Assembly: GCA_964523995.1 (NCBI GenBank)
Contig: CAZGBW010000001.1
Coordinates: 1-50,482 of the forward strand
DNA length: 50,482 nt
Source of the DNA: an uncultured Victivallales bacterium
GTDB lineage: Bacteria; Verrucomicrobiota; Kiritimatiellia; UBA8416
Direction of reading: 5' to 3'
Part shown: positions 14,575 to 29,674 of the stretch, piece by piece
How the letters are laid out: every line of letters begins with the position of its first letter
Numbering within the stretch: position 1 is the first letter of the stretch
Made by a program: the position numbers and the translations under genes
The notes under the pieces: generated by a model
Database searches by the model: none
What the model saw: only the letters and a program-made list of their open reading frames with translations
What the model was told of the DNA's origin: nothing

Positions 14575-14584
14575 GAGGTCTGCC

Positions 14585-16111
14585 ATGCTAGCACTCATCC
14601 CCGAGCCCGTCTCTGTATTGCAGGGCGAAGGAGCGTTTGAGATCAGCGCCACCACGCGACTGGCATTTCCACGGAGCCTGAAGCAGGAGGGAGCGTTCCT
14701 GCAAGACGCCCTTCGCCAGCGACTGGGGCTCCGGCTTGAGGCAGTGTCGTCCGGTTCGATACGCCTTAAGCTGAAACGTATGACCGGCGGGCGAGAAGCC
14801 TATCGACTGACTGTGTCGAAAGATGAAATCCTGGTTTCTGGTAAATCCGCGGCAGGCGTCTTTTTCGGGATCCAGACGCTGTTGCAGATGTTGCCGATCC
14901 GGCCGACGGGGGAAAGGTATGCCGTCGGGGCAGTCGCGATTCGTGACGAGCCGCGTTTCGGCTGGCGAGGACTGATGCTTGATGTGGGTCGCTACTTCTT
15001 CCCGGTCGCCGAGGTCAAGGGATTCCTCGATCTGATGGCCAGCTACAAGCTCAACCGGTTCCACTGGCATCTAACCGAGGACCAAGGGTGGCGGATCGAG
15101 ATCAAGAAGTACCCGAAGCTGACCGAGGTCGGCGCGGTCCGCAGGGAAACCGTGGTCGGGCATGCCGGCGTGACCCCCAACACGTTCGACGGAACGCCCT
15201 ACGCCGGATTCTACACGCAGGACGAGGTGCGCGAGGTCGTGCGGCATGCGGCCGGGCTGCATATCGAGGTTGTCCCGGAAATCGATATTCCGGGTCACTG
15301 CACGGCGGCCATCGCCGCCTATCCACGGCTCGGCAGTGTCAGGGAGCCCCTGGAAGTCAGTACAACGTGGGGCGTACATGAGAAGGGCGTCCTGAACGTG
15401 GAGGAGGATACCTTCCAGTTTGTCCTTGATGTGCTGGACGAGGTGATGGAACTGTTTCCAGGGGAGTTCATCCACATCGGTGCCGACGAAGCACCCAAGA
15501 CGATGTGGAAGCAGGATGAACGGGCCCAGGCCGTGATCCGCCGCGAGGGGCTCCAGGACGAGCACGAACTACAGAGTTACTTCATCCGGCGGGTCGAGAA
15601 ACACCTCAATGCCAAGGGGCGTCGCCTGATCGGATGGGACGAGATCCTGGAAGGTGGCCTGGCACCCAACGCCACCGTGATGTCGTGGCGTGGCGAAGCG
15701 GGGGGGATCGCAGCCGCCAGGCAGGGACATGACGCGGTCATGACGCCCAAGCAATATGTCTATTTCGACTACTACCAGAACGACTGCCGCGAGCGTGAAC
15801 CGTTGGCCATCGGCGGGTACCTTCCCCTGGCCAAGGTGTATTCGTACGAACCGGTTCCTGACGATCTCACCCCCGCGCAGGCAAGACACATACTGGGCGT
15901 GCAAGGTAACCTGTGGACGGAGTACATGCCGACCATGTCCCAGGTTCAGTACATGGCCTTTCCGCGTGCGCTTGCATTGTCCGAAGTCTGCTGGTCCCCC
16001 AGGGACTCGCGGGATTGGAAGTGCTTCATCCCGCGCCTGGCCCCGCACCTTGAACGACTGGATTCGCTGGGCATCAACTATCGTAAACCGGATGGAGGCG
16101 ACTATGAGTAG
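14585..16111 (+). CDS. GH20 beta-N-acetylhexosaminidase, cytoplasmic
   Basis: The ORF opens at 14564. ATG 14585 is preferred because AAGAGG lies 6-7 nt upstream. Motifs RFHWHLTEDQGWRIEIKKYP, EIDIPGH and HIGADEAPKTMW. No signal peptide. Confidence 0.9.
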   Translation: MLALIPEPVSVLQGEGAFEISATTRLAFPRSLKQEGAFLQDALRQRLGLRLEAVSSGSIRLKLKRMTGGREAYRLTVSKDEILVSGKSAAGVFFGIQTLLQMLPIRPTGERYAVGAVAIRDEPRFGWRGLMLDVGRYFFPVAEVKGFLDLMASYKLNRFHWHLTEDQGWRIEIKKYPKLTEVGAVRRETVVGHAGVTPNTFDGTPYAGFYTQDEVREVVRHAAGLHIEVVPEIDIPGHCTAAIAAYPRLGSVREPLEVSTTWGVHEKGVLNVEEDTFQFVLDVLDEVMELFPGEFIHIGADEAPKTMWKQDERAQAVIRREGLQDEHELQSYFIRRVEKHLNAKGRRLIGWDEILEGGLAPNATVMSWRGEAGGIAAARQGHDAVMTPKQYVYFDYYQNDCREREPLAIGGYLPLAKVYSYEPVPDDLTPAQARHILGVQGNLWTEYMPTMSQVQYMAFPRALALSEVCWSPRDSRDWKCFIPRLAPHLERLDSLGINYRKPDGGDYE

Positions 16112-16200
16112 CCTGCACCCCTGGGAAAAAGCCCCACCGGACAGCTCGTCAAGATGAACAGATCGCGCAAACAGGAAATGAGGTAAGGAGAAGCATTATT

Positions 16201-17382
16201 ATGAATGGTAAGGAAAACAGGGTTGTGGGGCTGGGTCTGATCGGGTGCGGAGCCCGCCTGACCGGAGTCATCGAGAACGTACTGAAGGACACGAAGGGTG
16301 TGCGCGTCGTGGCGCTGTGCGACCCGAGCATGATCGCGCTCAAGCAAGCCATGGAGAGGCTCGACTGTCATGGGGCTCGGGTGTACGACCATCATGGCGA
16401 CCTTTCGAGCGACCCGACGGTGGACTGGGTATGCGTCGGCTCGTGGAACTGCTTCCACAAGGAGCACATCCTCGGCGCCATTGCCGCAGGCAAGCATGTA
16501 TTCACCGAGAAACCGCTCGTGACCACGCTTGAGGACGCCGTTACACTCAAGGCAGGCGTCGAAGCGGCGAAGGGACTGTTCTCCATGGGCTTCGTGCTGC
16601 GCTATGCACCGTTCTACCAGCGCATCAAGGAACTGATCGGCGCAGGCGTCCTCGGTCGTCCCCTTTCGTTCGAGTTCAACGAGACACTCGGCTTCAACCA
16701 TGGCGGCTTCATCATGCAGGACTGGCGCCGCCGGCGCGAATACGCCGGGACGCACCTGCTCGAGAAATGCTGTCACGACGTGGATCTCATGAACTGGCTG
16801 ATCGACAGCGTGCCGGTACGTGCCGCCAGCTTCGGTGGACTCAATTTCTTCAAACCCGAGAATGCCCACCATGTGGAACGTATCGGCAAGGACAAGGAAG
16901 GTCGGGACGCCTACAGCACCTGGCAGTACTTCGGCATCTACACGCGCGAGCACAAGCTGAACCCGTTTACAGCGGAGAAGGACATTATCGACAACCAAGT
17001 CGCGATCCTCGAGTACGCCAACAACGTGCGAGCCACGTTCCACACCGATCTGAACTCGGCCATCGGCGAGCGGCGTTTCTATGCTTGCGGCACGGAAGGC
17101 ACGATTCGTGGCGATGTCGCAACCGGCAAGATCGAATGGCGGCGGATCGGGTTCGATACCGAACTGCACACGGAGCAGAGCGTCGGTGGCGGGCATGGCG
17201 GCGCCGATGGCATCCTCGCCGACGCCCTGCGTGATTCCATCCTGAATGGCACGCCGCCGTTGGTCGGTTTCGAGGACGGCCTGAAGTCGTCCGTGGCCTG
17301 CTTCGGCATGGATGCCGCGCTGGATAGTGGCACGGTGGTTGACCTCCGCCCGATGTGGGCGCAGGTGGGAATCGAGCCATGA
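16201..17382 (+). CDS. Gfo/Idh/MocA family NAD(P)-dependent oxidoreductase
   Basis: AAGGAGA RBS. N-terminal Rossmann segment VGLGLIGCGARL and the EKPL motif (FTEKPLVTTLEDA) typical of the family. Confidence 0.9.
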   Translation: MNGKENRVVGLGLIGCGARLTGVIENVLKDTKGVRVVALCDPSMIALKQAMERLDCHGARVYDHHGDLSSDPTVDWVCVGSWNCFHKEHILGAIAAGKHVFTEKPLVTTLEDAVTLKAGVEAAKGLFSMGFVLRYAPFYQRIKELIGAGVLGRPLSFEFNETLGFNHGGFIMQDWRRRREYAGTHLLEKCCHDVDLMNWLIDSVPVRAASFGGLNFFKPENAHHVERIGKDKEGRDAYSTWQYFGIYTREHKLNPFTAEKDIIDNQVAILEYANNVRATFHTDLNSAIGERRFYACGTEGTIRGDVATGKIEWRRIGFDTELHTEQSVGGGHGGADGILADALRDSILNGTPPLVGFEDGLKSSVACFGMDAALDSGTVVDLRPMWAQVGIEP

Positions 17383-19373
17383 ACAGGTGTACCCATATGC
17401 AACTGAACCGCATGGAAACGCGGGGGCGGGCGTCCGCCTCCCCCCGGAGAGACTGGCGGCAGTGCCCTGCCCGGACAGGCCTTGCGTTTCTCGCCTCGCT
17501 CGCCTTGCTGTTTCTATTCCCAGGTTTCCCGCCCCGCGACACGAACGCCGGGCAGAACAGCCTCGCCATCCGGCCCGAGCAGCCGCGGAACCTGGTCTCC
17601 AAAGGCATGATCAGGGTACAAAAGCTCAAGCTGAAGGAGCCCGGATGGAACAACCAGCTCGGTCCGGCGCTGGTAGCCGACGATCCGACGGGAGGTCTAT
17701 GGGTCTCCTGGCGCTCTGGCAGAGACAGCAACATCCAGCATATGACCGACAAGCTAAAGGCCGATCGGACGATCATCACACTGGAAAATCACGCCATCAT
17801 GGGGCTTTTCGGCCACGACGACGGGACCTTGGCGTTGACGTGGTACGAGTCCCGCATGAATCCGGAATTCGGTGTTGATCTCTACCTGAACAAGATTTCC
17901 GCTGACGGAGAGCAAATATGGACAACCAAGTTCAGAGGCGATCCTGGCGCCAATCTGGAATACAAGGATCGGCCTCAAGGCATATGGGGGCACCCGAACT
18001 ATGCAGGGCCCGTGATACCGATTGCATTCAACGGGAAACAGTATGGGCTTTTCTATGTGATCATGCAGAAATTCCCCGGCAACCCGGGCGAGTGCCACAC
18101 AGCGGATGAGTTCTGTGCCGTTGATGCTGATGGAACGGTTGACGAGTCCAAGCGGCATGTATGGAATGCCAGCCATAGCTTCTGGATGTCGGCCGTCGCG
18201 GGAAAGAAAGGTGATTTCTACGGCATCACGTATGCCTCTCCGAGCCCTTTTATCGGCATTCGCATGGGAGCCTATTCGAGGAAACCGGCGAAACAGGAGC
18301 TGATCTGGCCGGCAACAGAATGGGCGCTGGCGTTTGATATGCCGCACACGCGGCTAAGCCGGGCGTTCAACATTGGGCAAGGGTTCGCCATGGCGATCTC
18401 CAGCGGGGTAGACAAGGAGCTCTCGCTACTCGCCACGTATGATGTATCAGACGTGACCGCGCGGATAAAGGCTGAACAGATGATAAAGAGCGCATATCCC
18501 ATTCTCCTTCGGTTCGAGGAGGATGGCGCGATGGCACAATCCACTTATCTGACCACGAATCGGGTCCCGGATACGGTCGTGTCCGGAGCAAGGTTCGGAA
18601 AGGATTCCGCTATAGTCGCGTGGGGCAGCGGCCCGGGAGGCATGAAAGGTGAAGTGTTCGGAACATTCCCTGTGGAATTGGCCATCCTGGACCGGAACGG
18701 GAGCATCCTCCAGTCCCCCGTCGAAGTCGATGCCCCACTCACCTGGCATAGCGATCTGACCACATTGAAAAATGGTGACGTGGCCTGGGCCGGGATTGCC
18801 GATGACTGGACGCGGAACGACGACCGTCATACGCTTTACATCGTGCGCGTCGAGTGTCCCGAACCGCTTCGGGCCCCTGGAACGCCGACGGCGACCGGGG
18901 ACGACGATCCCGCGGAGAGCGGCGAGTCCGCCAACACAGAGGAAGCGGACGCGGGTACCACAGCCCGGACTCCCCTGCCACAAGCTGTAGCCCGGATCGA
19001 TGCCCAGTTGCTCGCCAAGCTGCAACGGCTAGCAGCCGCTACAGCCCTGCCAAGGGCTCCAATCCGGGTCTCGATGACGAAAGCCTGGGTGGTTCTGGCA
19101 GGTGTCGATGAACAGGGAGGCATCACCCTCCGTGCGCAAGTTGAGGGTCAGGCGCAGGAAGCCAGGTTCGAGTTTTCCGCGATGAAGCTCCTGGACAAGG
19201 CAACCATCGCGGCGGCGCTTGCCACAGCCGAACCGGACAACCAAACGCTACAGGCATCTGTCGGCTTCTACCTTGAATGCGCAGGACACCGGCGGGCTGC
19301 GGAACCCTACTATGCCAAGGCGGGCAATGCAGCGCGCGCCCAGTTCGACCGCCTGTTCGACGGCAGTCCGTAG
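17379..19373 (+). CDS. hypothetical exported protein, no recognisable family
   Basis: ATG 17379 overlaps the oxidoreductase stop (ATGA). Arg-rich N-region followed by the hydrophobic segment LAFLASLALLFLFPGF. Long beta-rich body, acidic linker and an Ala-rich helical tail. Confidence 0.6.
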   Translation: MNRCTHMQLNRMETRGRASASPRRDWRQCPARTGLAFLASLALLFLFPGFPPRDTNAGQNSLAIRPEQPRNLVSKGMIRVQKLKLKEPGWNNQLGPALVADDPTGGLWVSWRSGRDSNIQHMTDKLKADRTIITLENHAIMGLFGHDDGTLALTWYESRMNPEFGVDLYLNKISADGEQIWTTKFRGDPGANLEYKDRPQGIWGHPNYAGPVIPIAFNGKQYGLFYVIMQKFPGNPGECHTADEFCAVDADGTVDESKRHVWNASHSFWMSAVAGKKGDFYGITYASPSPFIGIRMGAYSRKPAKQELIWPATEWALAFDMPHTRLSRAFNIGQGFAMAISSGVDKELSLLATYDVSDVTARIKAEQMIKSAYPILLRFEEDGAMAQSTYLTTNRVPDTVVSGARFGKDSAIVAWGSGPGGMKGEVFGTFPVELAILDRNGSILQSPVEVDAPLTWHSDLTTLKNGDVAWAGIADDWTRNDDRHTLYIVRVECPEPLRAPGTPTATGDDDPAESGESANTEEADAGTTARTPLPQAVARIDAQLLAKLQRLAAATALPRAPIRVSMTKAWVVLAGVDEQGGITLRAQVEGQAQEARFEFSAMKLLDKATIAAALATAEPDNQTLQASVGFYLECAGHRRAAEPYYAKAGNAARAQFDRLFDGSP

Positions 19374-19441
19374 CACCGCCCAGACGACGGAAAAAGCCCG
19401 CATCAACGCCATGAACCGATGTCATCAAGCACACCCAAGAG

Positions 19442-20335
19442 TCACCTGATGATGATCGTCATCCCGGAAGGGGGAACCGGGATGTTCGTGATGACAATAT
19501 CGTCGATGCTGCCCTGATCGCGCGACCGAAGGAAGAGCGTCTTGAAGTCCGTGGGCGCGAAACCGGAAGGCAGTTCCAAGGCCATGGCCTGCATGCCGGC
19601 AACCGCCGTCCATGTGCCCGATGGCACGAGTGGATTGCCGCTGTATTGGTCGATAAAGAAGGACGCGGTGCCTGCCACCAGGTCGACCGTCAGCAGGCAG
19701 TCGAAATACAGGTAGCCGCCGCCGATGATCCCGTTCGTGGTATCGTTGTTCGCATCCGATGTGAACCGCCAACTGGCAAGGCTGCTCCCAATCACGATAA
19801 ACGGTGCGCCGCTGGCATCACCGAGCCCCAGTTGACTGATACGGCTCGATCCGGCAACCGAGTACCATGCGACGCTGAAGGCCTTGACGCCTTTGACTAA
19901 AGGCCATGCTGCATCACCGCTACAGGCCCGATAGGCCGTGGCAATATCGGCCCCCGTACTCGAGGACCAGGTGCCGGCAGAGACGTTGCCACCGGTGGTA
20001 CCGCGAGCTCTCATACCCGACAACAGCGTCTGCGTGCCTACCCACCCGTCCTGTCCGGCGAGAAACGCGTCGCCTCCTGTCAGATGATCGAAATCATACG
20101 TGAAGAAGGACGGCACGGTCGCCGTGGCCGTAAAGGTCAACGGTGACCCTCCCAGACCTACGCTCGTAGCCGTCGCCGTCTGCCCACCTGCCTGCTGTCC
20201 CAGAGTCCAGGTGGCTGTCGCGATCCCATTCGTATCCGACAGCACCGGATTTACACTGCCTAACGACCCGCCGCCGGTCGCCGCGGCGAAGATAATCCCC
20301 ACGCCGGCAACAATGATCCTCACCGGCGCTGCCAC
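19442..20335 (-). CDS. Ig-like (Big-type) domain plus lectin/LamG-like beta-sandwich segment; in frame with the upstream 703-aa ORF across a single TAG
   Basis: The track ORF starts at GTG 20335. The frame is open back to TAG 20357-20359 (AQRGYAP codons). GVGIIFAAATGGGSLGSVNPVLSDTNGIATATWTLG..SPLTFTATA is mid-to-C-terminal Big-domain sequence, not a signal peptide. The tail ends ..IDDIVITNI. Confidence 0.55.
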   Translation of the reverse strand: MAAPVRIIVAGVGIIFAAATGGGSLGSVNPVLSDTNGIATATWTLGQQAGGQTATATSVGLGGSPLTFTATATVPSFFTYDFDHLTGGDAFLAGQDGWVGTQTLLSGMRARGTTGGNVSAGTWSSSTGADIATAYRACSGDAAWPLVKGVKAFSVAWYSVAGSSRISQLGLGDASGAPFIVIGSSLASWRFTSDANNDTTNGIIGGGYLYFDCLLTVDLVAGTASFFIDQYSGNPLVPSGTWTAVAGMQAMALELPSGFAPTDFKTLFLRSRDQGSIDDIVITNIPVPPSGMTIIIR

Positions 20336-20356
20336 CGGCGCGTACCCACGCTGTGC

Positions 20357-22468
20357 CTATCGAAACAGGAAGACCGTTCCACGGGGTACGAACGGCGAGT
20401 AATCGACCGTCAGCAACGGGTGCCAGGAAGGATTCGCATGTTCTTTTGTGGCGAAGCCCAGCCGGGTCGCGCTGGTGTTGAGGCTGTTCAGATAAAAGCC
20501 GGCGTTCACGCCGCCGTGGGCCCACGATTCGAGAAGCGCCAGGTCGAATGCGTTCGTGATGGTGAAGGTCAGTGTCTGGCCGATGGTGACGGCGTCGACC
20601 TGGGGCACGTAGACTTCCGAGGCCACGGAGGCCAGACTCGCATTGGTCTCGGCAGGCCCGGGAGTATTGGGGTGGCTCGCGTTCCCTCCGAGCAGATCGC
20701 CGGCGGCCCACGGATCGCTTGCGTACTTGCGATACCCGCCGCAGGCCTCACCCGTCCCAGCCGTCGTGCCGTTCTTCGTCCCCTCGACCCAGTCGGCATC
20801 GACATCGCGGATTGTGTAGAGCGCGAAGGTGTTGGCCCCGGTGCCGTACTTCCCGCTAACGGTCAGCGTCAGGTCTGCCGAGGTGATCGCGCTGAACCGG
20901 CCGGCGAGGTTGGTGATGCTCCTGAACCGGAGGATGGCGCAATGGTTGGGGAAGAAGATGGTCTTGCCCACATACATTTCGGTGCTGATCCCGTAGTTGT
21001 TGTTATCGCCCCCCACCGTGGGCTGCTCGTTCGGGTTGAGTCGACAATCATCCGAGGGGAAGAAGCCTTCCAGCGTTGTCGCGCTTGCCACGGCGCTCAC
21101 GGCGGAAGTGTTGCCCGCCGCATCGTATGCGCTCAGCTGGTAGGCATAGGTGGTGGACGGTACCAGTCCCGTGTCCGTGTAGCTCGTGCTCGCTGTCGTA
21201 TCGAGCGGAACCCCATCGCGCAGGATGCTGTACCCGGTGACAGCGATGTTGTCGGTCGAGGCGTCCCAACTCAGCGCGACCTCGGTGGCCGACAACCCCG
21301 TGGCCGTGAGATTCGAGGGAACGCTGGGCGCCTGCGTATCCGGAGGGAACGTCTGAGCACTGGCAACGGCGCTCACGGCAGAGGTATTCCCCGCCGCATC
21401 GAATGCCTGCACCTTGTAGGCATAGGTCGTGGCCGGCGAAAGGCCGGAATCCAGGTAGTTCGTTTCCGTGGTCGTATCGATCGGGGCATCGTCGCGCAGG
21501 ATGCTGTACCCGGCAACGGCGAAGTTATCGGTCGAAGCGTTCCAGGTCACGGCGATGTCGCTGCTTGTCAACGCTGTCGCCGTGACGTTCGCCGGAATGC
21601 TTGGCGCTTCTGTGTCGGCGCTGATCGGCGTGTACGTGATCTCCAGCTTGGGGTGCGAGGAGCTGGTGGCGTGCTCTTTCGTGGCGAAGGCGAGCCGCGT
21701 TCTGCTGGTATTAAGGCTGTTAATGAAGAAGCCGGCATTCGCATCGCCGTTAGCCCAGGATGTGAGGACTGCCAGGTCATCGGGGTCGCTGATGCTGAAG
21801 CTGACCTCTTGACCATTGGTGACCGTGCTCATATTGGGGATAAGCACCTGATCGACAATGGAGGCCAGGCTGGCATTCGTGACGGCCGTGCCGGCCGTGC
21901 TGGCGGTGACGCCCTTGCCAAGCAGGTCACCGCCTGCCCAGGAGGTCGTGTTGAACTTTCTGTAGTGGCCACAATTCTGGCCAACCGCGGCCGTTGTGCC
22001 ATTCATGGTCCCTTCGATCCAATCCGCGTCAACATTGCGGATCGTAAACAGCACGAATGTGTTCGGCTTGTTGACTTCGTTAATGTAGACGCTATCGACC
22101 GTCAGGGTCAGGGTCGCCGAATCGATTGAGGCGAATTCCCCGGCCAAAGCCGAGACATCGAAGCGCATGATTCCGCAAAAGTTTGCAAAGAAGGCAGTCT
22201 TTCCAACCAGCATCGTGGTGGTAATGCCGTAGTTATTGTTGTCGCCGGTTTCGTTGCCCTGGGGGTTGACGGGGTTGAGCCGGCAATCGGCCGAGGCGGG
22301 AAAGTTCGTCGTGTCCGCCTTAGCGGCCAGGGGTGCGAGCACGACGCATCCCGCCAGTGCCAGCGCCGTGACAACCCGTGGCACGCTCCCGGCGGCGCCG
22401 AGACCGTGATGGACGGCGCTCCCTGCTCTCAGAGCCTTCCAAGTGCCCTGCATTTCTTGATGCCTCAT
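20357..22468 (-). CDS. secreted surface protein: DNRLRE/CBM96-like domain, two FN3 domains, second DNRLRE/CBM96-like domain (copy 1)
   Basis: GGAGG lies 6 nt upstream of ATG 22468. Signal peptide ends ..LAPLAAKA. ADCRLNP..NNNYG..MRFDVSAL..SATLTLTV..ATKEH..HPKLEITY, repeated as DDCRLNP..NNNYG..LRFRS..SADLTLTV..ATKEH..HPLLTVDY. Two FN3 units (P.NVTATAL..W.ASTDN.AV.GY.ILRD..YAY.V.A.DAAGN). Confidence 0.85.
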   Translation of the reverse strand: MRHQEMQGTWKALRAGSAVHHGLGAAGSVPRVVTALALAGCVVLAPLAAKADTTNFPASADCRLNPVNPQGNETGDNNNYGITTTMLVGKTAFFANFCGIMRFDVSALAGEFASIDSATLTLTVDSVYINEVNKPNTFVLFTIRNVDADWIEGTMNGTTAAVGQNCGHYRKFNTTSWAGGDLLGKGVTASTAGTAVTNASLASIVDQVLIPNMSTVTNGQEVSFSISDPDDLAVLTSWANGDANAGFFINSLNTSRTRLAFATKEHATSSSHPKLEITYTPISADTEAPSIPANVTATALTSSDIAVTWNASTDNFAVAGYSILRDDAPIDTTTETNYLDSGLSPATTYAYKVQAFDAAGNTSAVSAVASAQTFPPDTQAPSVPSNLTATGLSATEVALSWDASTDNIAVTGYSILRDGVPLDTTASTSYTDTGLVPSTTYAYQLSAYDAAGNTSAVSAVASATTLEGFFPSDDCRLNPNEQPTVGGDNNNYGISTEMYVGKTIFFPNHCAILRFRSITNLAGRFSAITSADLTLTVSGKYGTGANTFALYTIRDVDADWVEGTKNGTTAGTGEACGGYRKYASDPWAAGDLLGGNASHPNTPGPAETNASLASVASEVYVPQVDAVTIGQTLTFTITNAFDLALLESWAHGGVNAGFYLNSLNTSATRLGFATKEHANPSWHPLLTVDYSPFVPRGTVFLFR

Positions 22469-22547
22469 CGTGAACCTCCGCGTTGCGTGTTGATGACCTC
22501 CGCGCTACGGCGGCGGCGTGCCGGCGAGGGCGTGGCATCTGCACGTA

Positions 22548-22577
22548 ATTGTAGCGCACGCCGACCACGGGTGTCAA
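22548..22577 (-). promoter_or_regulatory. near-consensus sigma70-like promoter TTGACA-18-TACAAT (copy 1)
   Basis: rc of 22572-22577 is TTGACA and rc of 22548-22553 is TACAAT. It lies about 80 nt upstream of ATG 22468, inside the duplicated unit. Confidence 0.5.
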
Positions 22578-22592
22578 CGGAAAAGTTGCTCT

Positions 22593-22790
22593 TTATTGAT
22601 ATCCTGTCAAACTCACACTCGTAGCCGTCACCGTCTGCCCACCTGCCTGCTGTCCCAGAGTCCAGGTGGCTGTCGCGATCCCATTCGTATCCGACAGCAC
22701 CGGATTTACACTGCCTAACGACCCGCCGCCGGTCGCCGCGGCGAAGATAATCCCCACGCCGGCAACAATGATCCTCACCGGCGCTGCCAC
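22593..22790 (-). pseudogene. truncated duplicate of the 5' part of the Ig-like segment (65 codons)
   Basis: Matches the first ~58 codons of 19442..20335 apart from one Ala-to-Val change (the g/a mismatch). It diverges at the duplication junction 22617/22618 and stops at 22593. Confidence 0.7.
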
Positions 22791-22811
22791 CGGCGCGTAC
22801 CCACGCTGTGC

Positions 22812-24923
22812 CTATCGAAACAGGAAGACCGTTCCACGGGGTACGAACGGCGAGTAATCGACCGTCAGCAACGGGTGCCAGGAAGGATTCGCATGTTCTT
22901 TTGTGGCGAAGCCCAGCCGGGTCGCGCTGGTGTTGAGGCTGTTCAGATAAAAGCCGGCGTTCACGCCGCCGTGGGCCCACGATTCGAGAAGCGCCAGGTC
23001 GAATGCGTTCGTGATGGTGAAGGTCAGTGTCTGGCCGATGGTGACGGCGTCGACCTGGGGCACGTAGACTTCCGAGGCCACGGAGGCCAGACTCGCATTG
23101 GTCTCGGCAGGCCCGGGAGTATTGGGGTGGCTCGCGTTCCCTCCGAGCAGATCGCCGGCGGCCCACGGATCGCTTGCGTACTTGCGATACCCGCCGCAGG
23201 CCTCACCCGTCCCAGCCGTCGTGCCGTTCTTCGTCCCCTCGACCCAGTCGGCATCGACATCGCGGATTGTGTAGAGCGCGAAGGTGTTGGCCCCGGTGCC
23301 GTACTTCCCGCTAACGGTCAGCGTCAGGTCTGCCGAGGTGATCGCGCTGAACCGGCCGGCGAGGTTGGTGATGCTCCTGAACCGGAGGATGGCGCAATGG
23401 TTGGGGAAGAAGATGGTCTTGCCCACATACATTTCGGTGCTGATCCCGTAGTTGTTGTTATCGCCCCCCACCGTGGGCTGCTCGTTCGGGTTGAGTCGAC
23501 AATCATCCGAGGGGAAGAAGCCTTCCAGCGTTGTCGCGCTTGCCACGGCGCTCACGGCGGAAGTGTTGCCCGCCGCATCGTATGCGCTCAGCTGGTAGGC
23601 ATAGGTGGTGGACGGTACCAGTCCCGTGTCCGTGTAGCTCGTGCTCGCTGTCGTATCGAGCGGAACCCCATCGCGCAGGATGCTGTACCCGGTGACAGCG
23701 ATGTTGTCGGTCGAGGCGTCCCAACTCAGCGCGACCTCGGTGGCCGACAACCCCGTGGCCGTGAGATTCGAGGGAACGCTGGGCGCCTGCGTATCCGGAG
23801 GGAACGTCTGAGCACTGGCAACGGCGCTCACGGCAGAGGTATTCCCCGCCGCATCGAATGCCTGCACCTTGTAGGCATAGGTCGTGGCCGGCGAAAGGCC
23901 GGAATCCAGGTAGTTCGTTTCCGTGGTCGTATCGATCGGGGCATCGTCGCGCAGGATGCTGTACCCGGCAACGGCGAAGTTATCGGTCGAAGCGTTCCAG
24001 GTCACGGCGATGTCGCTGCTTGTCAACGCTGTCGCCGTGACGTTCGCCGGAATGCTTGGCGCTTCTGTGTCGGCGCTGATCGGCGTGTACGTGATCTCCA
24101 GCTTGGGGTGCGAGGAGCTGGTGGCGTGCTCTTTCGTGGCGAAGGCGAGCCGCGTTCTGCTGGTATTAAGGCTGTTAATGAAGAAGCCGGCATTCGCATC
24201 GCCGTTAGCCCAGGATGTGAGGACTGCCAGGTCATCGGGGTCGCTGATGCTGAAGCTGACCTCTTGACCATTGGTGACCGTGCTCATATTGGGGATAAGC
24301 ACCTGATCGACAATGGAGGCCAGGCTGGCATTCGTGACGGCCGTGCCGGCCGTGCTGGCGGTGACGCCCTTGCCAAGCAGGTCACCGCCTGCCCAGGAGG
24401 TCGTGTTGAACTTTCTGTAGTGGCCACAATTCTGGCCAACCGCGGCCGTTGTGCCATTCATGGTCCCTTCGATCCAATCCGCGTCAACATTGCGGATCGT
24501 AAACAGCACGAATGTGTTCGGCTTGTTGACTTCGTTAATGTAGACGCTATCGACCGTCAGGGTCAGGGTCGCCGAATCGATTGAGGCGAATTCCCCGGCC
24601 AAAGCCGAGACATCGAAGCGCATGATTCCGCAAAAGTTTGCAAAGAAGGCAGTCTTTCCAACCAGCATCGTGGTGGTAATGCCGTAGTTATTGTTGTCGC
24701 CGGTTTCGTTGCCCTGGGGGTTGACGGGGTTGAGCCGGCAATCGGCCGAGGCGGGAAAGTTCGTCGTGTCCGCCTTAGCGGCCAGGGGTGCGAGCACGAC
24801 GCATCCCGCCAGTGCCAGCGCCGTGACAACCCGTGGCACGCTCCCGGCGGCGCCGAGACCGTGATGGACGGCGCTCCCTGCTCTCAGAGCCTTCCAAGTG
24901 CCCTGCATTTCTTGATGCCTCAT
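22812..24923 (-). CDS. secreted DNRLRE/CBM96-like + 2x FN3 + DNRLRE/CBM96-like surface protein (copy 2, identical 703 aa)
   Basis: Translation is identical to 20357..22468. Confidence 0.85.
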   Translation of the reverse strand: MRHQEMQGTWKALRAGSAVHHGLGAAGSVPRVVTALALAGCVVLAPLAAKADTTNFPASADCRLNPVNPQGNETGDNNNYGITTTMLVGKTAFFANFCGIMRFDVSALAGEFASIDSATLTLTVDSVYINEVNKPNTFVLFTIRNVDADWIEGTMNGTTAAVGQNCGHYRKFNTTSWAGGDLLGKGVTASTAGTAVTNASLASIVDQVLIPNMSTVTNGQEVSFSISDPDDLAVLTSWANGDANAGFFINSLNTSRTRLAFATKEHATSSSHPKLEITYTPISADTEAPSIPANVTATALTSSDIAVTWNASTDNFAVAGYSILRDDAPIDTTTETNYLDSGLSPATTYAYKVQAFDAAGNTSAVSAVASAQTFPPDTQAPSVPSNLTATGLSATEVALSWDASTDNIAVTGYSILRDGVPLDTTASTSYTDTGLVPSTTYAYQLSAYDAAGNTSAVSAVASATTLEGFFPSDDCRLNPNEQPTVGGDNNNYGISTEMYVGKTIFFPNHCAILRFRSITNLAGRFSAITSADLTLTVSGKYGTGANTFALYTIRDVDADWVEGTKNGTTAGTGEACGGYRKYASDPWAAGDLLGGNASHPNTPGPAETNASLASVASEVYVPQVDAVTIGQTLTFTITNAFDLALLESWAHGGVNAGFYLNSLNTSATRLGFATKEHANPSWHPLLTVDYSPFVPRGTVFLFR

Positions 24924-25002
24924 CGTGAACCTCCGCGTTGCGTGTTGATGACCTCCGCGCTACGGCGGCGGCGTGCCGGCGAGGGCGTGGCATCTGCACG
25001 TA

Positions 25003-25032
25003 ATTGTAGCGCACGCCGACCACGGGTGTCAA
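25003..25032 (-). promoter_or_regulatory. near-consensus sigma70-like promoter TTGACA-18-TACAAT (copy 2)
   Basis: rc of 25027-25032 is TTGACA and rc of 25003-25008 is TACAAT. Confidence 0.5.
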
Positions 25033-25279
25033 CGGAAAAGTTGCTCTTTATTGATATCCTGTCAAACTCACAAAAGTCCACGGATCACCGCTGGAGTATA
25101 TGGAACGTGCTGTACTATAAGCACTTAACATACACTTAGCTCCGAGACTCAATAACACTTAGAGCGATGAATTGGGGAATATTCAGCCCTTTTTGGACAC
25201 GCGAGCCGGTCCCGTATGCTCTCGAGCAGGCGTGCGGCCGTCTGAGACCTCACCTGCGTGCATCTGTTGCGGCGGGAGG

Positions 25280-25754
25280 CTATCTGACGAAGATCACGGT
25301 GGCGTTACCGCCCGGCGCGACGTGCAGCGGCAAGTCTTCGTAGGCGTCAGCCAGGATGAAGCTGTCCACCTGGGTTTTGGCCGCCCGCCACTGGATCTTG
25401 GCGGTGTTGCCGTTGGCGTAGTCTGGCTTGCAACCCGTGACGGCGGCATCCGGCGTTGGCAATTCGGCTTCGGTGGCGGCGACCGGGTTCACCCACAGGC
25501 TTAAATCGTAGAGGTCGCCGCCGCCGCAGACCTGCCGCAGCACCAGAGTCGTGGGCGCGCATGCCCGTCGTGCTAACCCATCCGTCTTGCCCGTGGATGT
25601 ACGCATCCGCCCCCGTGAGGTTGTTGAAGTTGTACGTGTACACCGCGATATCGGCCAAACCAACGTGCGGAACCACAAAGCCCACCAGTGCAACCGCCAG
25701 CATCCGAGCCACGATGGATCTGATCACTTGATCTGCTCCTTCCAGCCTTTTCAC
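25280..25754 (-). pseudogene. frameshifted small exported lectin-like protein, paralogue of the tail domain of 19442..20335
   Basis: Two overlapping ORFs, 25347..25754 and 25280..25693. The first gives signal-like MLAVALVGFVVPHVGLA, then YTYNFNNLTGADAYIHGQDGWVSTTGMRA (compare FTYDFDHLTGGDAFLAGQDGWVGT). Sense continues in the other frame from ..PTTLVLRQVCGGGDLYDLSLWVNP.. The shift lies near the GCGCGCCCAC run at about 25565-25575. Confidence 0.6.
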
Positions 25755-26039
25755 TCCGGCATGAATTGTTGATATTTTTTGCAGCCATACCCGCAGTTAC
25801 CAACATATAATAATATGAATACTCCGCTTTATCAACGCAAGAATGCACTATTATTAACTTTTTCAGCGTCAATCAAATTGCAGGCTCAACGGGCGTGCGG
25901 ACAGCGAGCCGCTGTCCCTCCCTATGTGTATCCAACCGCTTTCTGAACTCTGCTCATAAGTTACCCCTTCGTTTTTTGCACACCGCCGTGGGTGGCTTAC
26001 CAACCAGTTATTCGCCCCGCAGCAGATGTCTTGCTTGCC

Positions 26040-27578
26040 TCATTTCTTCAGCGCTTCGTAGATGCCCTGTGCGATCAGGTCCGCAAGGATCGCGTTGCCC
26101 CTGTCGTTGGCATGCACCCCGTCGCCGGTCAGCAGTCGGCCCTTGAAGGCCAGAGAACCGCCGATCTGCGGCTCCCACCCATGATTCTCGTAGTAGGCCA
26201 TGAACGCCCTGCGAAGATCCACGAGCGCCGTTCCGGTGTCGGCAGCAACCTTGCGGGTGATCTCCGCGTACTGGTCGCAGACGGCTTTGCGGTCGCCTGC
26301 GGTTTCATCCCAGATGGCCAGGGTCGCCAGCACCGGCACGGTGCGGTTCGCCCGAGCGGCTCCGATCATGTCCCGTAGCGCCTGTTCGAACGCTTCGGGA
26401 GACGTCTTCCGCCACCAGACGTCGTTGACGCCGATGAAGATCGTGGCCACATCCGCCTTGTCCGCGACGAGCGTCTCGGCGAAGGGCTTCGGTGAGGTGC
26501 TGCCGAAATGCGTCTTGGCCGTGTCGCCGTCACGGAGCGTCAGCACGCCGCCACCGTTGACACCGTGGTTGACCAGCCTGATCGCCATCCCTTTCGTGCC
26601 TTCGCCCTGCGCCAACGCACGATCAAGCAGGCCGATATAGACGTTCTGCCAGGTGAGCGAATCGCCGAAGAGCGAAATGACCATGCCATCCTTCAGAGGC
26701 GTACCTGTGCCGCTCAGGTTCGCACGGCCGGGCACCTCGTACAGCGATGCCCGCAGGGCGACAGCCTTCCCTGACAGGTCGAAGGGCGGATCGATGGGCG
26801 CGACCGGATCGCCCGGAACCAGTTCGCCGTCGTCCCTGAGAACAGCCTGGAAGAGCCCGGGAGCACGGTTTGATGGGTTGACAAATCCGATTTGCCGAAC
26901 CTGCCCGGGCGTGAGCCCGGCGCTTCCACCTGCCATGCGGATACGGTCCTCCCCCTCCGTCCAGTCCGCCAGCGCCAGTGTCCGTCCGGCAGTCCACTCC
27001 AGTCCTTGGCTGTCGTCGAAGCGCAGCTCAACCGCCTTGTTGCCCAACAGCAATCGGCGGTCGTACCGAAGATCCAGCGACCCGGCGGTCTCGGTGGCGC
27101 CGAACACCATCAACTCGTTGACGTGCTGACCAGGGTTCGCGCTGTTCTTCAGCATCGTGAGCCGGACGAAACGGGCGGGCACCGGATCGAAAAAGTGCTC
27201 GCTGCCTGCCGCCGTGGAGACGTCCGCGTTCGTACTGCTGTCGACAACACGCGTCCATCCCGCTCCGTCAGGCGAGGCATCGACCGCGTACTGGTAGCGC
27301 CGCACACCATCATGGAAAAGGTACACGCCTACACGGTTGATCGAGAAGGTCTCCTGCAGATCCACCTGCAGCCAGGACGGGGTCTTGCCGCTGTGCCACC
27401 CGGACTCGTTGGTCGGTACGCCATCGACCACCTTCGCCGGGAAGGCGGTGCCCTGCGTCTCGCCGTCGATGGTGACGGGCTTGTTCAACGCCAGGTTGGT
27501 TTCGCCCAGCGCGGCGAGGACCGGTAAGAATGACAGCCAGATGACCTGGGCCGCGTATCGTGTTCTCATGGTATTCAT
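26040..27578 (-). CDS. secreted F5/8 type C (discoidin) domain + SGNH/GDSL hydrolase (carbohydrate esterase-like)
   Basis: Signal peptide. WLQVDL..RYQYAVDASPDGAGW..NPGQHVNELMVFG. SGNH blocks FGDSLTW, HGVNGGG, FIGVNDVWW and GDGVHAN. The start overlaps the upstream stop (ATGA at 27575-27578). Confidence 0.85.
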   Translation of the reverse strand: MNTMRTRYAAQVIWLSFLPVLAALGETNLALNKPVTIDGETQGTAFPAKVVDGVPTNESGWHSGKTPSWLQVDLQETFSINRVGVYLFHDGVRRYQYAVDASPDGAGWTRVVDSSTNADVSTAAGSEHFFDPVPARFVRLTMLKNSANPGQHVNELMVFGATETAGSLDLRYDRRLLLGNKAVELRFDDSQGLEWTAGRTLALADWTEGEDRIRMAGGSAGLTPGQVRQIGFVNPSNRAPGLFQAVLRDDGELVPGDPVAPIDPPFDLSGKAVALRASLYEVPGRANLSGTGTPLKDGMVISLFGDSLTWQNVYIGLLDRALAQGEGTKGMAIRLVNHGVNGGGVLTLRDGDTAKTHFGSTSPKPFAETLVADKADVATIFIGVNDVWWRKTSPEAFEQALRDMIGAARANRTVPVLATLAIWDETAGDRKAVCDQYAEITRKVAADTGTALVDLRRAFMAYYENHGWEPQIGGSLAFKGRLLTGDGVHANDRGNAILADLIAQGIYEALKK

Positions 27579-29674
27579 GGTTGGAGCGCCTCGTAGATGC
27601 CCTGTGCGATCAGATTGGCGAGAAGGCCGTCCCCACGGGCGTTGCTATGCACACCGTCGTGATTCAGCCAATTGGCGTCCAAGGTCCAGCTCCCGCCGGG
27701 TCGGACGGTGACGGCCTCGTTTGCCAGGCAGGCCAGGAACGCCGCGCGCAGATCCACCAGCACCGTGCCGGTTTCGCGGGCCACGGCGCGCATGACGTCG
27801 GCATAGACATCGCAGTCCGGGTTCGGCTTGATCGGGGTATCCTTGAGAATCGCCAGTGTCGCCAGCACCGGGATCGTCTTGTTGGCTCTTGCCTGGGCCA
27901 CCAGCTCGCGCAGCATCTGGCCATACGCCTCAGGCGTGCTCTTCTTCCACCAGACGTCATTGACGCCGATGAAGATTACAGCCACATCCGCCTTGTCGGC
28001 GGCGATCGTCTGGGCAAAGGGTTCAGGCTTCGTGTTCCCGGAACGGTTCTTCGAATCCTGCCCGTCCCGGATTGCCTGCACACCGGCGCCATTGACGCCG
28101 TTGTTGACGACACGGACACCCAGAGCCTTCGAACCCGCTCCCGCCCGAATCCCTTGGTGGAGGGTACTCACCAATCCGCCGCCCCACGTGATGGAGTCGC
28201 CAAAGACGGAGATGACCATTCCTTGCTTGAGCGGCGTTTCGGCCCCCCCGAGCCGAGCCAGGCCCGGAACGGCGTACAACGCCCGGCGGGCCTCGTAGGC
28301 TTCGGTGGACATGTCGATGGGCAGATCGATCGGCTGCACCATCGTTCCGGTGGGGACAAGCTCACCCTGTGCACTGAGCGAGGCGGTATAGGTGCCTGGC
28401 CGTAACCCTGCGGGGTCGGAGAACCCGATCTGGGCCAGTTGAGCGGCAGTCAGGCCCTTGCTGCTGGTGCCGACATGGAGGGCACTGCGATCTTTTCCGC
28501 CGTTGCGGATAATCAGGGCGCAACCGGGTTTCCAGGCCTTGGTGCTGCTATCGGCAAAGACGAGCCGTCCGCCGGCGTCGCCCAGGTCGATAACCCCGTC
28601 GCTCTGCAGATCCAGCGCACCAACCGTTTCGGTGTGGCCGTGCAAGGCCAGGGTCGGGTTCGTGCCGGCGAAGGTCAACGGCGAGGCATCCGCAATCTGC
28701 TCATCCGAATCCCAACGCAGGGTGCCCAAAGCCGACAGTACAACCGGCCCTGCCACGGCGGTCACCCCGTCGGGCTTCGCCAACCGCGTGTCATCCTTGC
28801 CCCCCCCGAAGGTGGTGATTCCGGTGAGGGTGCTTGGCATGTCGCCCGAAATGGTGGTGCCGTGGTTGACGAAATGGACATTGCCTTCGCCCCGCAGGCG
28901 GGCTGACAAGCGGGTGGGGCACCCTCCGCCGTTGGTGATCTGCCACGTCACCCCTTTCTCGACAGTGACGGAGCCATCGAGGACGCAGTAGGTCTGGCCG
29001 GTCCAGCGGGAATCGGCGGCGATGACGAGATCCCGCGAGCAGTGGACCCGCGATCCGAGGTTAAGTTGCCCGCCCAGCAGGCGGACAGGCAACGGGCCCC
29101 CGCCCAGCGCGCCGTTGTTTCCCATCAGGAGCGAACCGCTCTCGAGGGTTACCGAGCCGACATATCCGGTGTTGACACCGGTCATGACGACCGTGCCGTC
29201 GGGCACACCACTGACGACCAGTTCGCCGTCACCGCGGATCGTCCCCGAAATCGAGAGACGCTCGGCTCCCAGGTACCAGCGGTTCTCGTTGCGGAACTCC
29301 ACGCGGCCAGCCAGGAGAATCGGGGCGGAAATGGACTGAGAACCATCCGTGCCTGGCCGGGTCAGCGGTTTGAAGACAACGCGCGCCCCGTCGCCCAGCC
29401 GCAGCGTCTCGCCTTCGATCACGCACACGTGCCGTGCCTGCGGATCGAAGGTGATGGTGCCTACGTCCGTCTCGCGGCTGAGGTGGATCGTGGCATTCGT
29501 GGCCAGATCGGCGATGATCGCGTGATCCCCCTTGCCGGGCACACCAGTGCCTGGGTTCCAGTTGGCCGGCGTGTGCCAGTCGCTATCCTTCGAGCCGGTC
29601 CATACGTAGTCGGCAGCCTGCGACAGTGTGGTGGAAACAAGCAACAGGGCGGTGATAATCGTGATCTGTGACAT
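27575..29674 (-). CDS. secreted autotransporter-associated beta-strand repeat protein with C-terminal SGNH/GDSL hydrolase domain
   Basis: ORF to 29884, with the start moved to ATG 29674 behind AAGGAGA. Signal peptide MSQITIITALLLVSTTLSQA. ADYVWTG.. beta-strand repeats. SGNH blocks FGDSITW, NGVNGAG, FIGVNDVWW and HDGVHSN. Confidence 0.85.
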   Translation of the reverse strand: MSQITIITALLLVSTTLSQAADYVWTGSKDSDWHTPANWNPGTGVPGKGDHAIIADLATNATIHLSRETDVGTITFDPQARHVCVIEGETLRLGDGARVVFKPLTRPGTDGSQSISAPILLAGRVEFRNENRWYLGAERLSISGTIRGDGELVVSGVPDGTVVMTGVNTGYVGSVTLESGSLLMGNNGALGGGPLPVRLLGGQLNLGSRVHCSRDLVIAADSRWTGQTYCVLDGSVTVEKGVTWQITNGGGCPTRLSARLRGEGNVHFVNHGTTISGDMPSTLTGITTFGGGKDDTRLAKPDGVTAVAGPVVLSALGTLRWDSDEQIADASPLTFAGTNPTLALHGHTETVGALDLQSDGVIDLGDAGGRLVFADSSTKAWKPGCALIIRNGGKDRSALHVGTSSKGLTAAQLAQIGFSDPAGLRPGTYTASLSAQGELVPTGTMVQPIDLPIDMSTEAYEARRALYAVPGLARLGGAETPLKQGMVISVFGDSITWGGGLVSTLHQGIRAGAGSKALGVRVVNNGVNGAGVQAIRDGQDSKNRSGNTKPEPFAQTIAADKADVAVIFIGVNDVWWKKSTPEAYGQMLRELVAQARANKTIPVLATLAILKDTPIKPNPDCDVYADVMRAVARETGTVLVDLRAAFLACLANEAVTVRPGGSWTLDANWLNHDGVHSNARGDGLLANLIAQGIYEALQP

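What the first reader, a model, noticed from the sequence alone, without database searches (positions are those of the whole stretch)
20163..25072. Near-exact 2,455-bp tandem duplication carrying a complete surface-protein gene with its promoter
Segments 20163-22617 and 22618-25072 match at a constant offset. Every six-frame ORF translation in the track is identical between them. I saw only one mismatch (g at 20175, a at 22630), 13 nt from the boundary. The unit runs from inside the Ig-like segment to 149 bp upstream of the 703-aa gene.

Copy 2 is therefore followed by a truncated 65-codon remnant, and both copies keep the TTGACA-18-TACAAT promoter. There are no transposase genes or terminal inverted repeats. 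This looks like a very recent replication or recombination duplication (gene-dosage amplification of a surface or glycan-binding protein), or an assembly artefact.
Basis: seen in the sequence. Interest (0 to 1): 0.6.

Follow-up and report, generated by a model that had tools for sequence, protein, structure and literature searches.

The report
Tandem-duplicated secreted glycan-binding protein gene
A 2.5-kb stretch holding one complete secreted, carbohydrate-binding-type protein gene is written twice head-to-tail in this lake-bacterium genome bin. Independent assemblies of four sequencing runs break at exactly the repeat's edges, so the join is very probably real, but the perfect identity and the copy number come from the assembler and have not been measured.

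Summary

Each unit carries a promoter-like site, a 703-aa gene (signal peptide, DNRLRE/CBM96, FN3, FN3, DNRLRE/CBM96) and the first 58 codons of the next ORF.

The window is a whole contig of a fragmented genome bin. Its contig ends overlap by exactly 55 nt, which marks a SPAdes-type k=55 assembly. The two copies are therefore one graph edge written twice. Differences deeper than 54 nt from a boundary cannot show, so "near-exact, very recent" is not established.

However, k=31 Logan contigs from four runs (SRR12261224-27) start or stop at the bases a fork at the unit boundaries predicts (20176, 20205, 25043). This makes the junction real DNA rather than a path-finding error.

Evidence for heterogeneity:
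- One Logan contig crosses the left boundary without a fork, and the Lake Mendota co-assembly crosses the right one.
- A second allele of the gene's C-terminal tail exists.

Verdict: an ordinary, probably genuine and possibly polymorphic tandem gene duplication formed by a non-homologous join. Copy number, fixation and copy identity are unmeasured. An earlier scan note called a similar 2.5-kb MAG duplication false; the cause given there does not apply here.

The parts
20163..22617 (.). Repeat unit, copy 1 (adjacent to the left flank)
   Evidence: Identical to 22618-25072 except at 20175
22618..25072 (.). Repeat unit, copy 2 (adjacent to the right flank)
   Evidence: BLAST of the unit against the whole bin finds only these two places
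22610..22631 (.). Novel junction 22617|22618 (AACTCACA|CTCGTAGCCGTCA), with the junction-linked A at 22630. There is no usable microhomology: an AC dinucleotide followed by a mismatch.
   Evidence: Sequence read. Fork positions in Logan contigs
20175..20175 (.). The only difference between the copies (G here, A at 22630), 13 nt inside the unit and therefore within k-1 = 54 nt of the boundary
20357..22468 (-). 703-aa gene, copy 1: signal-peptide-like N-terminus, DNRLRE/CBM96, FN3, FN3, DNRLRE/CBM96, short tail VPRGTVFLFR
   Evidence: NF033679 76.2 bits (cut-off 34), PF24517 41.9 bits (cut-off 26), PF00041 70.7 bits
22812..24923 (-). 703-aa gene, copy 2, identical product
22548..22577 (-). Promoter-like TTGACA-18-TACAAT in front of copy 1
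   Evidence: 11 of 12 consensus matches. This is a consensus match only.
25003..25032 (-). The same promoter-like site in front of copy 2
19442..20335 (-). 297-codon ORF. It is a 5'-truncated relic (partial Ig-like repeat, lectin-like domain, tail) of a gene of the type SP - L - Ig - Ig - L - tail. Its first 58 codons lie inside the unit.
   Evidence: 68 % identical to residues 366-647 of a 647-aa protein. Homology stops at 20338-20347
22593..22790 (-). 65-codon remnant created by the duplication: 58 copied codons (one changed, A to V), then 7 codons read from the promoter region, then TAA

Best explanation
A real head-to-tail tandem duplication of a 2,455-bp segment exists in the DNA of this freshwater bacterial population, in at least part of the cells.

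It arose by one non-homologous (RecA-independent, illegitimate or template-switch) join. One end lay 149 nt upstream of the 703-aa gene. The other lay inside the neighbouring gene relic. (Inferred.)

Each copy keeps its own promoter-like site, ribosome-binding site and complete coding sequence. A cell with the duplication therefore carries two expressible doses of a secreted DNRLRE/CBM96-FN3-FN3-DNRLRE/CBM96 protein, inside a glycan-degradation gene neighbourhood. (Inferred.)

The contig shows the duplication as a loop of the assembly graph walked twice. The identity of the copies, the number of copies (two or more) and the fraction of cells carrying it are therefore not shown by the sequence.
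For: (1) The repeat is exact.

(2) Contig ends of the bin overlap by exactly 55 nt in 370 cases and by 0 at k = 41 or 77-141. This is a k=55 de Bruijn assembly, which cannot invent a junction without reads that contain it. The boundaries share no sequence through which a false loop could form.

(3) Logan assemblies use k=31, drop k-mers seen once, and hold every 31-mer only once per run (PMC12424806). Their contigs end to the base where forks are predicted:
- L038 (SRR12261225, plus one other sample) and L040 (SRR12261224) both span exactly 20176-21950. They start at the first 31-mer shared by the left-flank (G) and junction (A) contexts.
- L037 (SRR12261226) stops at 20205 = 20175+30 and has no break left of the SNP. 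This excludes a plain SNP bubble.
- L035 (SRR12261227) stops at 25043 = 25073-30.

(4) Four different runs show this, which argues against a chimera from one library.

(5) No transposase or inverted repeats are present, which fits a simple illegitimate join.
Against:
- In SRR12261227 a contig (L036) runs from the left flank through 20176 to 21950 without a fork.
- The MetaHipMer co-assembly of 471 Lake Mendota metagenomes has a 7,130-nt contig that crosses the right boundary and holds the gene once.
- So single-copy-like paths exist, and the duplication may be a minority or sample-specific variant.
- Fork positions show that a second context exists at each boundary. Only the metaSPAdes-type contig itself links them into one junction sequence.
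- The fork at the right boundary alone could also be an unpopped SNP at 25042, although that would be a coincidence.
Confidence: 0.72

Rival explanations
1. The contig is a composite of lineages. The junction sequence is real DNA but belongs to a different arrangement in a co-occurring lineage or molecule, for example a permuted or partial copy elsewhere, or an excised 2.5-kb circle. The assembler threaded it into a single-copy locus, so no chromosome carries flank-U-U-flank as written.
For: - Two alleles of the gene's tail circulate: T698/F702 in the window and L038, M698/I702 in L036, L040 and the co-assembly.
- L036 and the co-assembly contig cross one boundary each without a fork.
- All Logan contigs of the unit's left part end at 21950, an unexplained extra fork.
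- Assemblers are known to write graph cycles more often than they occur (CheckV paper, PMC8116208).
- An earlier scan note (e1-2451729) judged a similar 2.5-kb MAG duplication false.
Against: - Any molecule with unit-end joined to unit-start is most simply a tandem array.
- Other arrangements need further novel junctions, and the k=55 graph evidently did not contain them, since the contig is continuous for 50 kb.
- No recombinase or repeat that could excise a circle is present.
- Unlike the earlier case, no short repeat is shared by the boundaries.
Confidence: 0.17
2. The duplication is a pure artefact. No natural DNA molecule carries the junction. It comes from chimeric library fragments or a graph error, and the genome has one copy.
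For: - Short-read assemblies cannot span a 2.4-kb exact repeat.
- The duplication is private to this contig among all collections searched.
- The one mismatch sits next to the junction, as a sequencing error in a single chimeric read might.
Against: - Forks at the exact predicted bases occur in four separate runs, assembled with a different program and a different k.
- k-mers seen once are discarded by Logan, so each fork needs at least two reads per run.
- The repeat length (2,455) is not a k-mer length, so it is not an untrimmed contig-end overlap.
Confidence: 0.05
3. This is a variant of the main explanation. The duplication is real but not recent. The two copies differ at several sites (paralogous variants) that the assembler flattened into one consensus edge.
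For: - Only 108 of the 2,455 positions can display a difference in a k=55 graph, and one of them does.
- The tail alleles (two substitutions 11 nt apart) appear alternately in runs whose sequence is otherwise identical over 1,775 nt. This is what random popping of an equal-coverage bubble between two copies would give.
- A constant fork at 21950/21951 is seen in three runs.
Against: - The same patterns fit two strains.
- Diversity in the flanks is very low: 0, 2 and 3 differences in 6.2, 7.9 and 8.9 kb. The junction-adjacent mismatch may instead be a footprint of the joining event.
Confidence: 0.25

Closest known systems
Spontaneous tandem gene duplication-amplification in bacteria (RecA-independent formation, RecA-dependent expansion and loss; known from Salmonella/E. 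coli genetics; my own background knowledge, not looked up here)
   Same: - Head-to-tail direct repeat of a few kb with one novel junction.
- No homology at the join and no mobile-element genes.
- A whole gene with its promoter is included, so dosage doubles.
- Signs of population heterogeneity.
   Different: - Seen only in metagenome assemblies of an uncultured lake bacterium.
- Copy number, stability and any selective benefit are unmeasured.
Assembler over-traversal of graph cycles (concatenated genome copies in metagenomic contigs; Nayfach et al. 2021, CheckV, PMC8116208)
   Same: - A short-read de Bruijn assembly writes the same edge more than once.
- The copies are necessarily identical and the multiplicity is unreliable.
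   Different: - Here the cycle is embedded in a 50-kb linear chromosome contig, not a circular replicon.
- It needs a specific non-homologous junction, and four other assemblies see its two ends as forks.
k-mer-length duplication scars (55/77/99/127/141-bp untrimmed contig-end overlaps), reported repeatedly by this scan on phage genomes
   Same: A perfect tandem repeat in a SPAdes-type assembly.
   Different: The repeat is 2,455 bp, not k. It lies mid-contig and is not at a re-opened circle.
CBM96 / DNRLRE-domain proteins (founding member: alginate-binding module of Dp0100; Ji et al. 2022, PMC9971899)
   Same: Both terminal domains of the 703-aa protein score above the curated cut-offs of NF033679 and PF24517. 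They are combined with FN3 spacers, as in many extracellular glycan-active proteins.
   Different: - There is no catalytic domain and no sequence-detectable solved relative for these domains.
- The ligand is unknown. The neighbourhood is GH20/GH32/GH65/GH89/SGNH, not alginate lyases.
- No orthologue was found in 40 related genomes or in 5.8 billion protein clusters.

Membership tests
Tandem duplication by illegitimate (non-homologous) joining | Two adjacent direct copies with a single novel junction | tested here: met
   20163-22617 = 22618-25072, with the junction at 22617|22618
Tandem duplication by illegitimate (non-homologous) joining | No extended homology between the two parental breakpoints | tested here: met
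   Identity is at chance level outside the unit. At most an AC dinucleotide followed by a mismatch is shared
Tandem duplication by illegitimate (non-homologous) joining | The junction is present in the raw data of independent libraries | tested here: inconclusive
   Indirect only. Logan k=31 contigs of four runs end at 20176, 20205 and 25043, exactly as forks at the boundaries predict. One contig crosses the left boundary unforked. No reads were seen.
Tandem duplication by illegitimate (non-homologous) joining | About twofold read depth over the unit, and outward-facing read pairs | not testable with these tools
k-mer overlap / assembly-seam duplication | Repeat length equals an assembler k (55, 77, 99, 127, 141) | tested here: not met
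   The repeat is 2,455 nt, while the assembly's k is 55
False loop through a shared short repeat (strain composite) | [quoted passage not shown] | tested here: not met
   There is no similarity between 20100-20162 and 22555-22617, or between 22618 onward and 25073 onward. No inverted or direct repeats lie at the boundaries.
IS- or transposon-mediated amplification | Flanking IS elements, a transposase, or terminal inverted repeats | tested here: not met
   0 inverted repeats of 30 nt or more in 18000-27500. No transposase or integrase domain in the unit or flanking ORFs.
DNRLRE domain / CBM96 proteins | Match above the curated cut-off of the family models | tested here: met
   NF033679 76.2 bits (cut-off 34, two stretches). 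PF24517 41.9 bits (cut-off 26)
DNRLRE domain / CBM96 proteins | Carbohydrate (alginate) binding through the basic groove of the founding member | not tested
   No structure prediction or residue mapping was done. phmmer finds no solved relative for these domains.
PEP-CTERM / exosortase-sorted proteins | C-terminal PEP motif, then a transmembrane helix, then an Arg-rich end | tested here: not met
   The tail is only VPRGTVFLFR: it has no helix-length hydrophobic stretch. The genome does have two exosortase homologues and a few classical PEP-CTERM proteins. Distant homologues of the neighbouring lectin-like domain end in true PEP-CTERM.

The most novel reading that the evidence does not exclude
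The duplication is a naturally segregating gene amplification in a wild lake bacterium. Its two copies have already diverged in the short C-terminal tail (T698/F702 versus M698/I702). Its frequency varies between samples of the 20-year Lake Mendota series. If so, the birth, maintenance and early divergence of a duplicated surface glycan-binding gene could be followed directly in nature.
Probability: 0.25. Interest if true: 0.5.

Novelty: new member of a known kind. Interest (0 to 1): 0.3.

Why it matters
Tandem duplications are thought to be the commonest and most reversible adaptive mutations in bacteria. They are almost invisible in short-read metagenomes, because assemblers collapse them or break at them.

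Here one is written out. Its two edges can be recognised as forks in independent assemblies of several samples from a long time series. If read mapping confirms it, this locus gives a concrete marker, the 22617|22618 junction. That marker could be used to measure how often such an amplification of a secreted glycan-binding protein rises, persists or is lost in a natural population.

The case also gives a practical caution. In a k-mer assembly, identical copies say nothing about the age of a duplication.

Tried and rejected
- **Exact-protein look-ups** of the 703-aa, 297-aa and 65-aa products found nothing outside the window.
- **Collection scans.** Protein-pattern and exact-DNA scans of metagenome contigs and genome contigs found nothing.
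- **Synteny in 20-40 related genomes.** Neither the 703-aa gene, the 297-codon ORF nor orthologues of the flanking genes are present, so no empty site could be compared.
- **Next Logan contig to the right of 21950.** My guesses for it (182-aa and 172-aa partial products) and a 49-aa partial were not on record.
- **Rejected: TAG read-through fusing the 703-aa gene to the 297-codon ORF.** They are in frame, 7 codons apart. However, TAG ends 315 of 1,249 long ORFs here, and the 703-aa protein ends in the same kind of tail as complete relatives.
- **Rejected: the C-terminal tail as a genome-wide sorting signal.** It occurs only at this locus.
- **Rejected: an internal repeat as the cause of the 21950 break.** No 20-mer or longer recurs there.
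- **Co-assembly contig ends.** These (window-equivalent 20262 and 20313) did not fit any simple k-based prediction, and no DNA was available for them.
Full report
**1. The observation**

At a constant offset of 2,455 nt, window 20163-22617 and 22618-25072 agree at every position except 20175 (G) versus 22630 (A). Identity drops to the chance level of this 62 % G+C DNA immediately outside both ends (one search finds the same repeat).

On the minus strand each unit holds three things:
- a promoter-like TTGACA-18-TACAAT (22577-22548 and 25032-25003; 11 of 12 consensus positions);
- a GGAGG-type ribosome-binding site and a 703-codon ORF (22468-20357 and 24923-22812);
- the first 58 codons of the next ORF (20335-19442).

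In copy 2 those 58 codons run on across the junction for seven codons to a TAA. This gives the 65-codon remnant 22790-22593.

The region has no inverted repeats of 30 nt or more, and no transposase or integrase domains occur in or beside the unit.

The three relevant joins read as follows:
- left flank to unit: CCCAGACCTACG|CTCGTAGCCGTCG
- junction: AACTCACA|CTCGTAGCCGTCA
- unit to right flank: AACTCACA|AAAGTCC

The parental breakpoints therefore share at most an AC followed by a mismatch.

**2. What kind of sequence this is**

The window is the whole of contig C1 of a genome bin with 500 contigs, 2.97 Mb, N50 7.7 kb and 86 % completeness.

Contig ends of the bin overlap each other by exactly 55 nt in 370 cases. 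They overlap in 0 cases at 41, 77, 91, 99, 119, 127 or 141 nt. That is the signature of a SPAdes-type de Bruijn assembly with largest k = 55 (the CheckV paper describes such k-length overlaps).

Elsewhere in the bin the longest repeat at 95 % identity or better is 443 bp (98.9 %), and the longest exact one is 175 bp. The 2,442-nt exact repeat is a complete outlier.

In such an assembly a tandem duplication is a loop: left flank, shared edge U, short junction edge, U again, right flank. The contig can contain U twice only by writing the same edge twice. Two consequences follow.

First, the assembler cannot show any difference between the copies that lies more than 54 nt from a boundary. Internal differences become bubbles that are flattened. 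The single mismatch, 13 nt from the boundary, lies inside the only 108 positions where a difference could appear. "Near-exact" identity is therefore imposed by the method and says nothing about the age of the duplication.

Second, the number of traversals is an estimate by the assembler. Short reads cannot span 2.4 kb. Metagenome assemblers are known to write cycles too often in rare cases (PMC8116208).

On the other hand, a de Bruijn graph has a junction edge only if reads contain the junction k-mers. Here no sequence is shared between the boundaries through which a false loop could form. That is the difference from an earlier case in this scan (e1-2451729), which was judged a strain composite looped through a short repeat.

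**3. Independent assemblies**

Exact look-ups of the flanking proteins did retrieve other assemblies of the same locus. [quoted passage not shown] Logan contigs therefore cannot contain the unit twice and must end at forks.

If a second context (the junction) exists, three contig ends are predicted:
- The first 31-mer shared by the left-flank (G) and junction (A) contexts starts at 20176.
- A contig coming from the left flank must therefore stop at 20175+30 = 20205.
- A contig coming from the right flank must stop at 25073-30 = 25043.

The observed contigs:

| Locus | Run | Window span | Note |
|---|---|---|---|
| L037 | SRR12261226 | 14038-20205 | 100 % identical |
| L038 | SRR12261225 (and one further sample) | 20176-21950 | 1,775 nt, 100 % identical |
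| L040 | SRR12261224 | 20176-21950 | two substitutions |
| L035 | SRR12261227 | 33906-25043 | |

All four ends fall on the predicted base.

L037 has no break to the left of the SNP. The A variant therefore does not share the left flank. That is what a junction predicts and what a plain G/A polymorphism does not.

Four runs and a different assembler make a path-finding error or a single-library chimera very unlikely. I take the junction to be real DNA.

**4. Signs that the picture is not uniform**

- In SRR12261227 a contig (L036) runs from the left flank through 20176 to 21950 without a fork. Yet the right-flank contig of the same run stops at 25043. I cannot reconcile these two fully. Low coverage of a duplication-bearing minority is the simplest idea.
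- The MetaHipMer co-assembly of 471 Lake Mendota metagenomes (IMG 3300059473; PMC11374980) has a 7,130-nt contig that crosses the right boundary. It holds the 703-aa gene once and ends 44 nt after its stop. It also has a 10,024-nt contig that ends about 100 nt inside the unit's left end. No DNA was available for either.
- There is a second allele of the gene with two substitutions 11 nt apart (20365 A>T, 20376 G>A). They change the tail VPRGTVFLFR to VPRGMVFLIR. This allele is seen in L036, L040 and the co-assembly protein P0275. The window and L038 have the other allele. Over the remaining 1,773 nt these contigs are identical.
- All three Logan contigs of the unit's left part end at 21950. 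No repeat in the bin explains this.

These facts fit two readings: a mixture of single-copy and duplicated lineages, or two copies that differ at a few sites and whose bubbles are resolved differently in each run. Only read-level phasing can decide.

**5. What is duplicated**

The 703-aa protein has, in order:
- a long N-terminus with a signal-peptide-like hydrophobic stretch (…RVVTALALAGCVVLAPLAAKA|DT);
- a DNRLRE/CBM96 domain;
- two FN3 domains;
- a second DNRLRE/CBM96 domain;
- an 11-residue tail.

The supporting scores are NF033679 76.2 bits against a cut-off of 34, PF24517 41.9 against 26, and PF00041 70.7. CBM96 was founded on an alginate-binding module (PMC9971899). By sequence, only the FN3 part has solved relatives.

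The gene has no orthologue in 40 related genomes. Among 5.8 billion protein clusters, the other hits shown cover at most 62 % of the protein (mostly about a quarter), at low identity. Its only cluster mate is the tail allele above.

The neighbourhood is rich in glycan-degradation genes:
- three GH20, two GH32, GH65, a GH63-like enzyme and GH89/NAGLU;
- an ABC sugar importer;
- two SGNH esterases, one of them with a discoidin domain;
- a metallopeptidase with a discoidin domain.

A non-catalytic, secreted, two-headed carbohydrate-binding protein is the most likely reading. The ligand is unknown.

**6. The surroundings are already rearranged**

The 297-codon ORF downstream is not a complete gene. 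Its closest relatives (68 % and 57 % identity) are 647- and 1,068-aa proteins with this architecture: signal peptide, lectin-like domain, 2-7 Ig-like repeats, lectin-like domain, tail. The ORF corresponds only to their last about 289 residues.

It starts inside an Ig-like repeat and has no signal peptide. The homology stops within 20 nt of the 703-aa gene's stop codon.

Upstream of the duplication, 25718-25554 encodes the signal peptide and the first about 35 residues of the same lectin-like domain. The reading frame is then lost. This agrees with an earlier first-reader note (e1-3707905).

So the 703-aa gene sits between the two ends of a disrupted gene, and the duplication copied "a remnant of a remnant".

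The 703-aa stop (TAG) and the 297-codon ORF are in the same frame, 7 codons apart (note e1-3707901). I do not think they form one gene, for two reasons:
- TAG is a normal stop here: 315 of 1,249 long ORFs end in it.
- The 703-aa protein ends with the same kind of tail as complete relatives (VPPAGTVILLR, ASPAGTVITIR).

**7. How it most likely works**

- *Shown:* the structure of the repeat, the lack of homology at the join, and the completeness of both gene copies with their promoter-like sites.
- *Supported indirectly:* the junction exists in the DNA of several samples.
- *Inferred from general bacterial genetics (my background knowledge):* a RecA-independent illegitimate join or template switch between sister chromosomes created the duplication. 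Homologous recombination between the 2.4-kb copies can then lose it or amplify it further, so it is expected to be polymorphic unless selected. The junction-adjacent substitution may be a footprint of the joining event or a later mutation.
- *Not shown:* expression, doubled dosage, any benefit, the copy number and the carrier fraction.

Copy 1 keeps only 40 nt upstream of its -35 hexamer. Any upstream regulatory site (note e1-3707903) would therefore be missing for it. No terminator-like site separates the copies, so read-through from copy 2 is also possible.

**8. Verdict**

This is an ordinary kind of event, a tandem gene duplication without mobile elements, in an uncultured freshwater bacterium.

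- The "assembly artefact" alternative is unlikely for the junction. It is correct, however, for the apparent perfect identity and possibly for the copy number.

Interest is modest. The locus would gain value if read mapping across the 20-year lake series showed the junction frequency changing over time, or the two copies diverging.

Noticed in passing
19442-20335 (-): The 297-codon ORF is the C-terminal about 289 residues of a larger gene type: signal peptide, lectin-like domain, Ig-like repeats, lectin-like domain, tail. Its relatives are 647 and 1,068 aa long, at 68 % and 57 % identity. The ORF starts inside an Ig-like repeat and has no signal peptide. The lectin-like domain matches no Pfam or NCBIfam model and no solved structure by sequence.
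   Followed up: partly
25280-25754 (-): A relic of the same family. It has the signal peptide plus about 35 residues of the lectin-like domain (66 % identical to a 242-aa stand-alone relative). The frame is then lost, and another frame ends in a similar tail (ATVIFVR*). Together with the 297-codon ORF it brackets the 703-aa gene, as if that gene had been inserted into, or had replaced, the middle of an older gene.
   Followed up: partly
20360-20392, 19445-19480, 25283-25320 (-): A short C-terminal tail P-x-x-G-(T)-hydrophobic(4)-R* (VPRGTVFLFR, VPPSGMTIIIR, APGGNATVIFVR) occurs only in these three ORFs of the bin. Close relatives end the same way (VPPAGTVILLR). Distant relatives of the lectin-like domain end in full PEP-CTERM signals (VVPEPATMVLL...RRR). 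The bin has two exosortase homologues (contigs C306 and C20). The tail could be a shortened PEP-CTERM or just a final beta-strand.
   Followed up: partly
20365 and 20376: Other assemblies carry A>T and G>A here (F702I and T698M in the tail of the 703-aa protein). These are the only differences in 1.8-7.9 kb of otherwise identical sequence. The two clustered non-synonymous changes could be strain alleles or differences between the two copies.
   Followed up: partly
21920-21951: Three Logan contigs from three runs (L036, L038, L040) all end at 21950, inside the first DNRLRE domain. No 20-mer or longer from this spot recurs in the bin. The cause is unknown: an unpopped SNP at 21951, a second junction, or a stretch shared with another organism.
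   Followed up: partly
20336-20359 (-): The TAG stop of the 703-aa gene and the 297-codon ORF are in the same frame, 7 codons apart. TAG is a common stop in this genome, so recoding is unlikely.
   Followed up: yes
29695-29702: The Logan contig of SRR12261227 differs from the window at three clustered bases (29695, 29701, 29702) between the GH20 and SGNH genes, and nowhere else in 8.9 kb. The co-assembly contig also starts near here (about 29897).
   Followed up: no
26040-29884 (-): Two adjacent SGNH/GDSL esterase genes are old tandem paralogues (49 % identity over 356 residues). Similar discoidin modules sit on the esterase, a GH20 (29707-31986) and a metallopeptidase (912-2834). The locus has a history of duplication and domain shuffling.
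   Followed up: no
whole bin (contig ends): 370 contig-end pairs overlap by exactly 55 nt, which identifies a k=55 SPAdes-type assembly. This is useful for judging any other repeat or break reported in this genome.
   Followed up: yes
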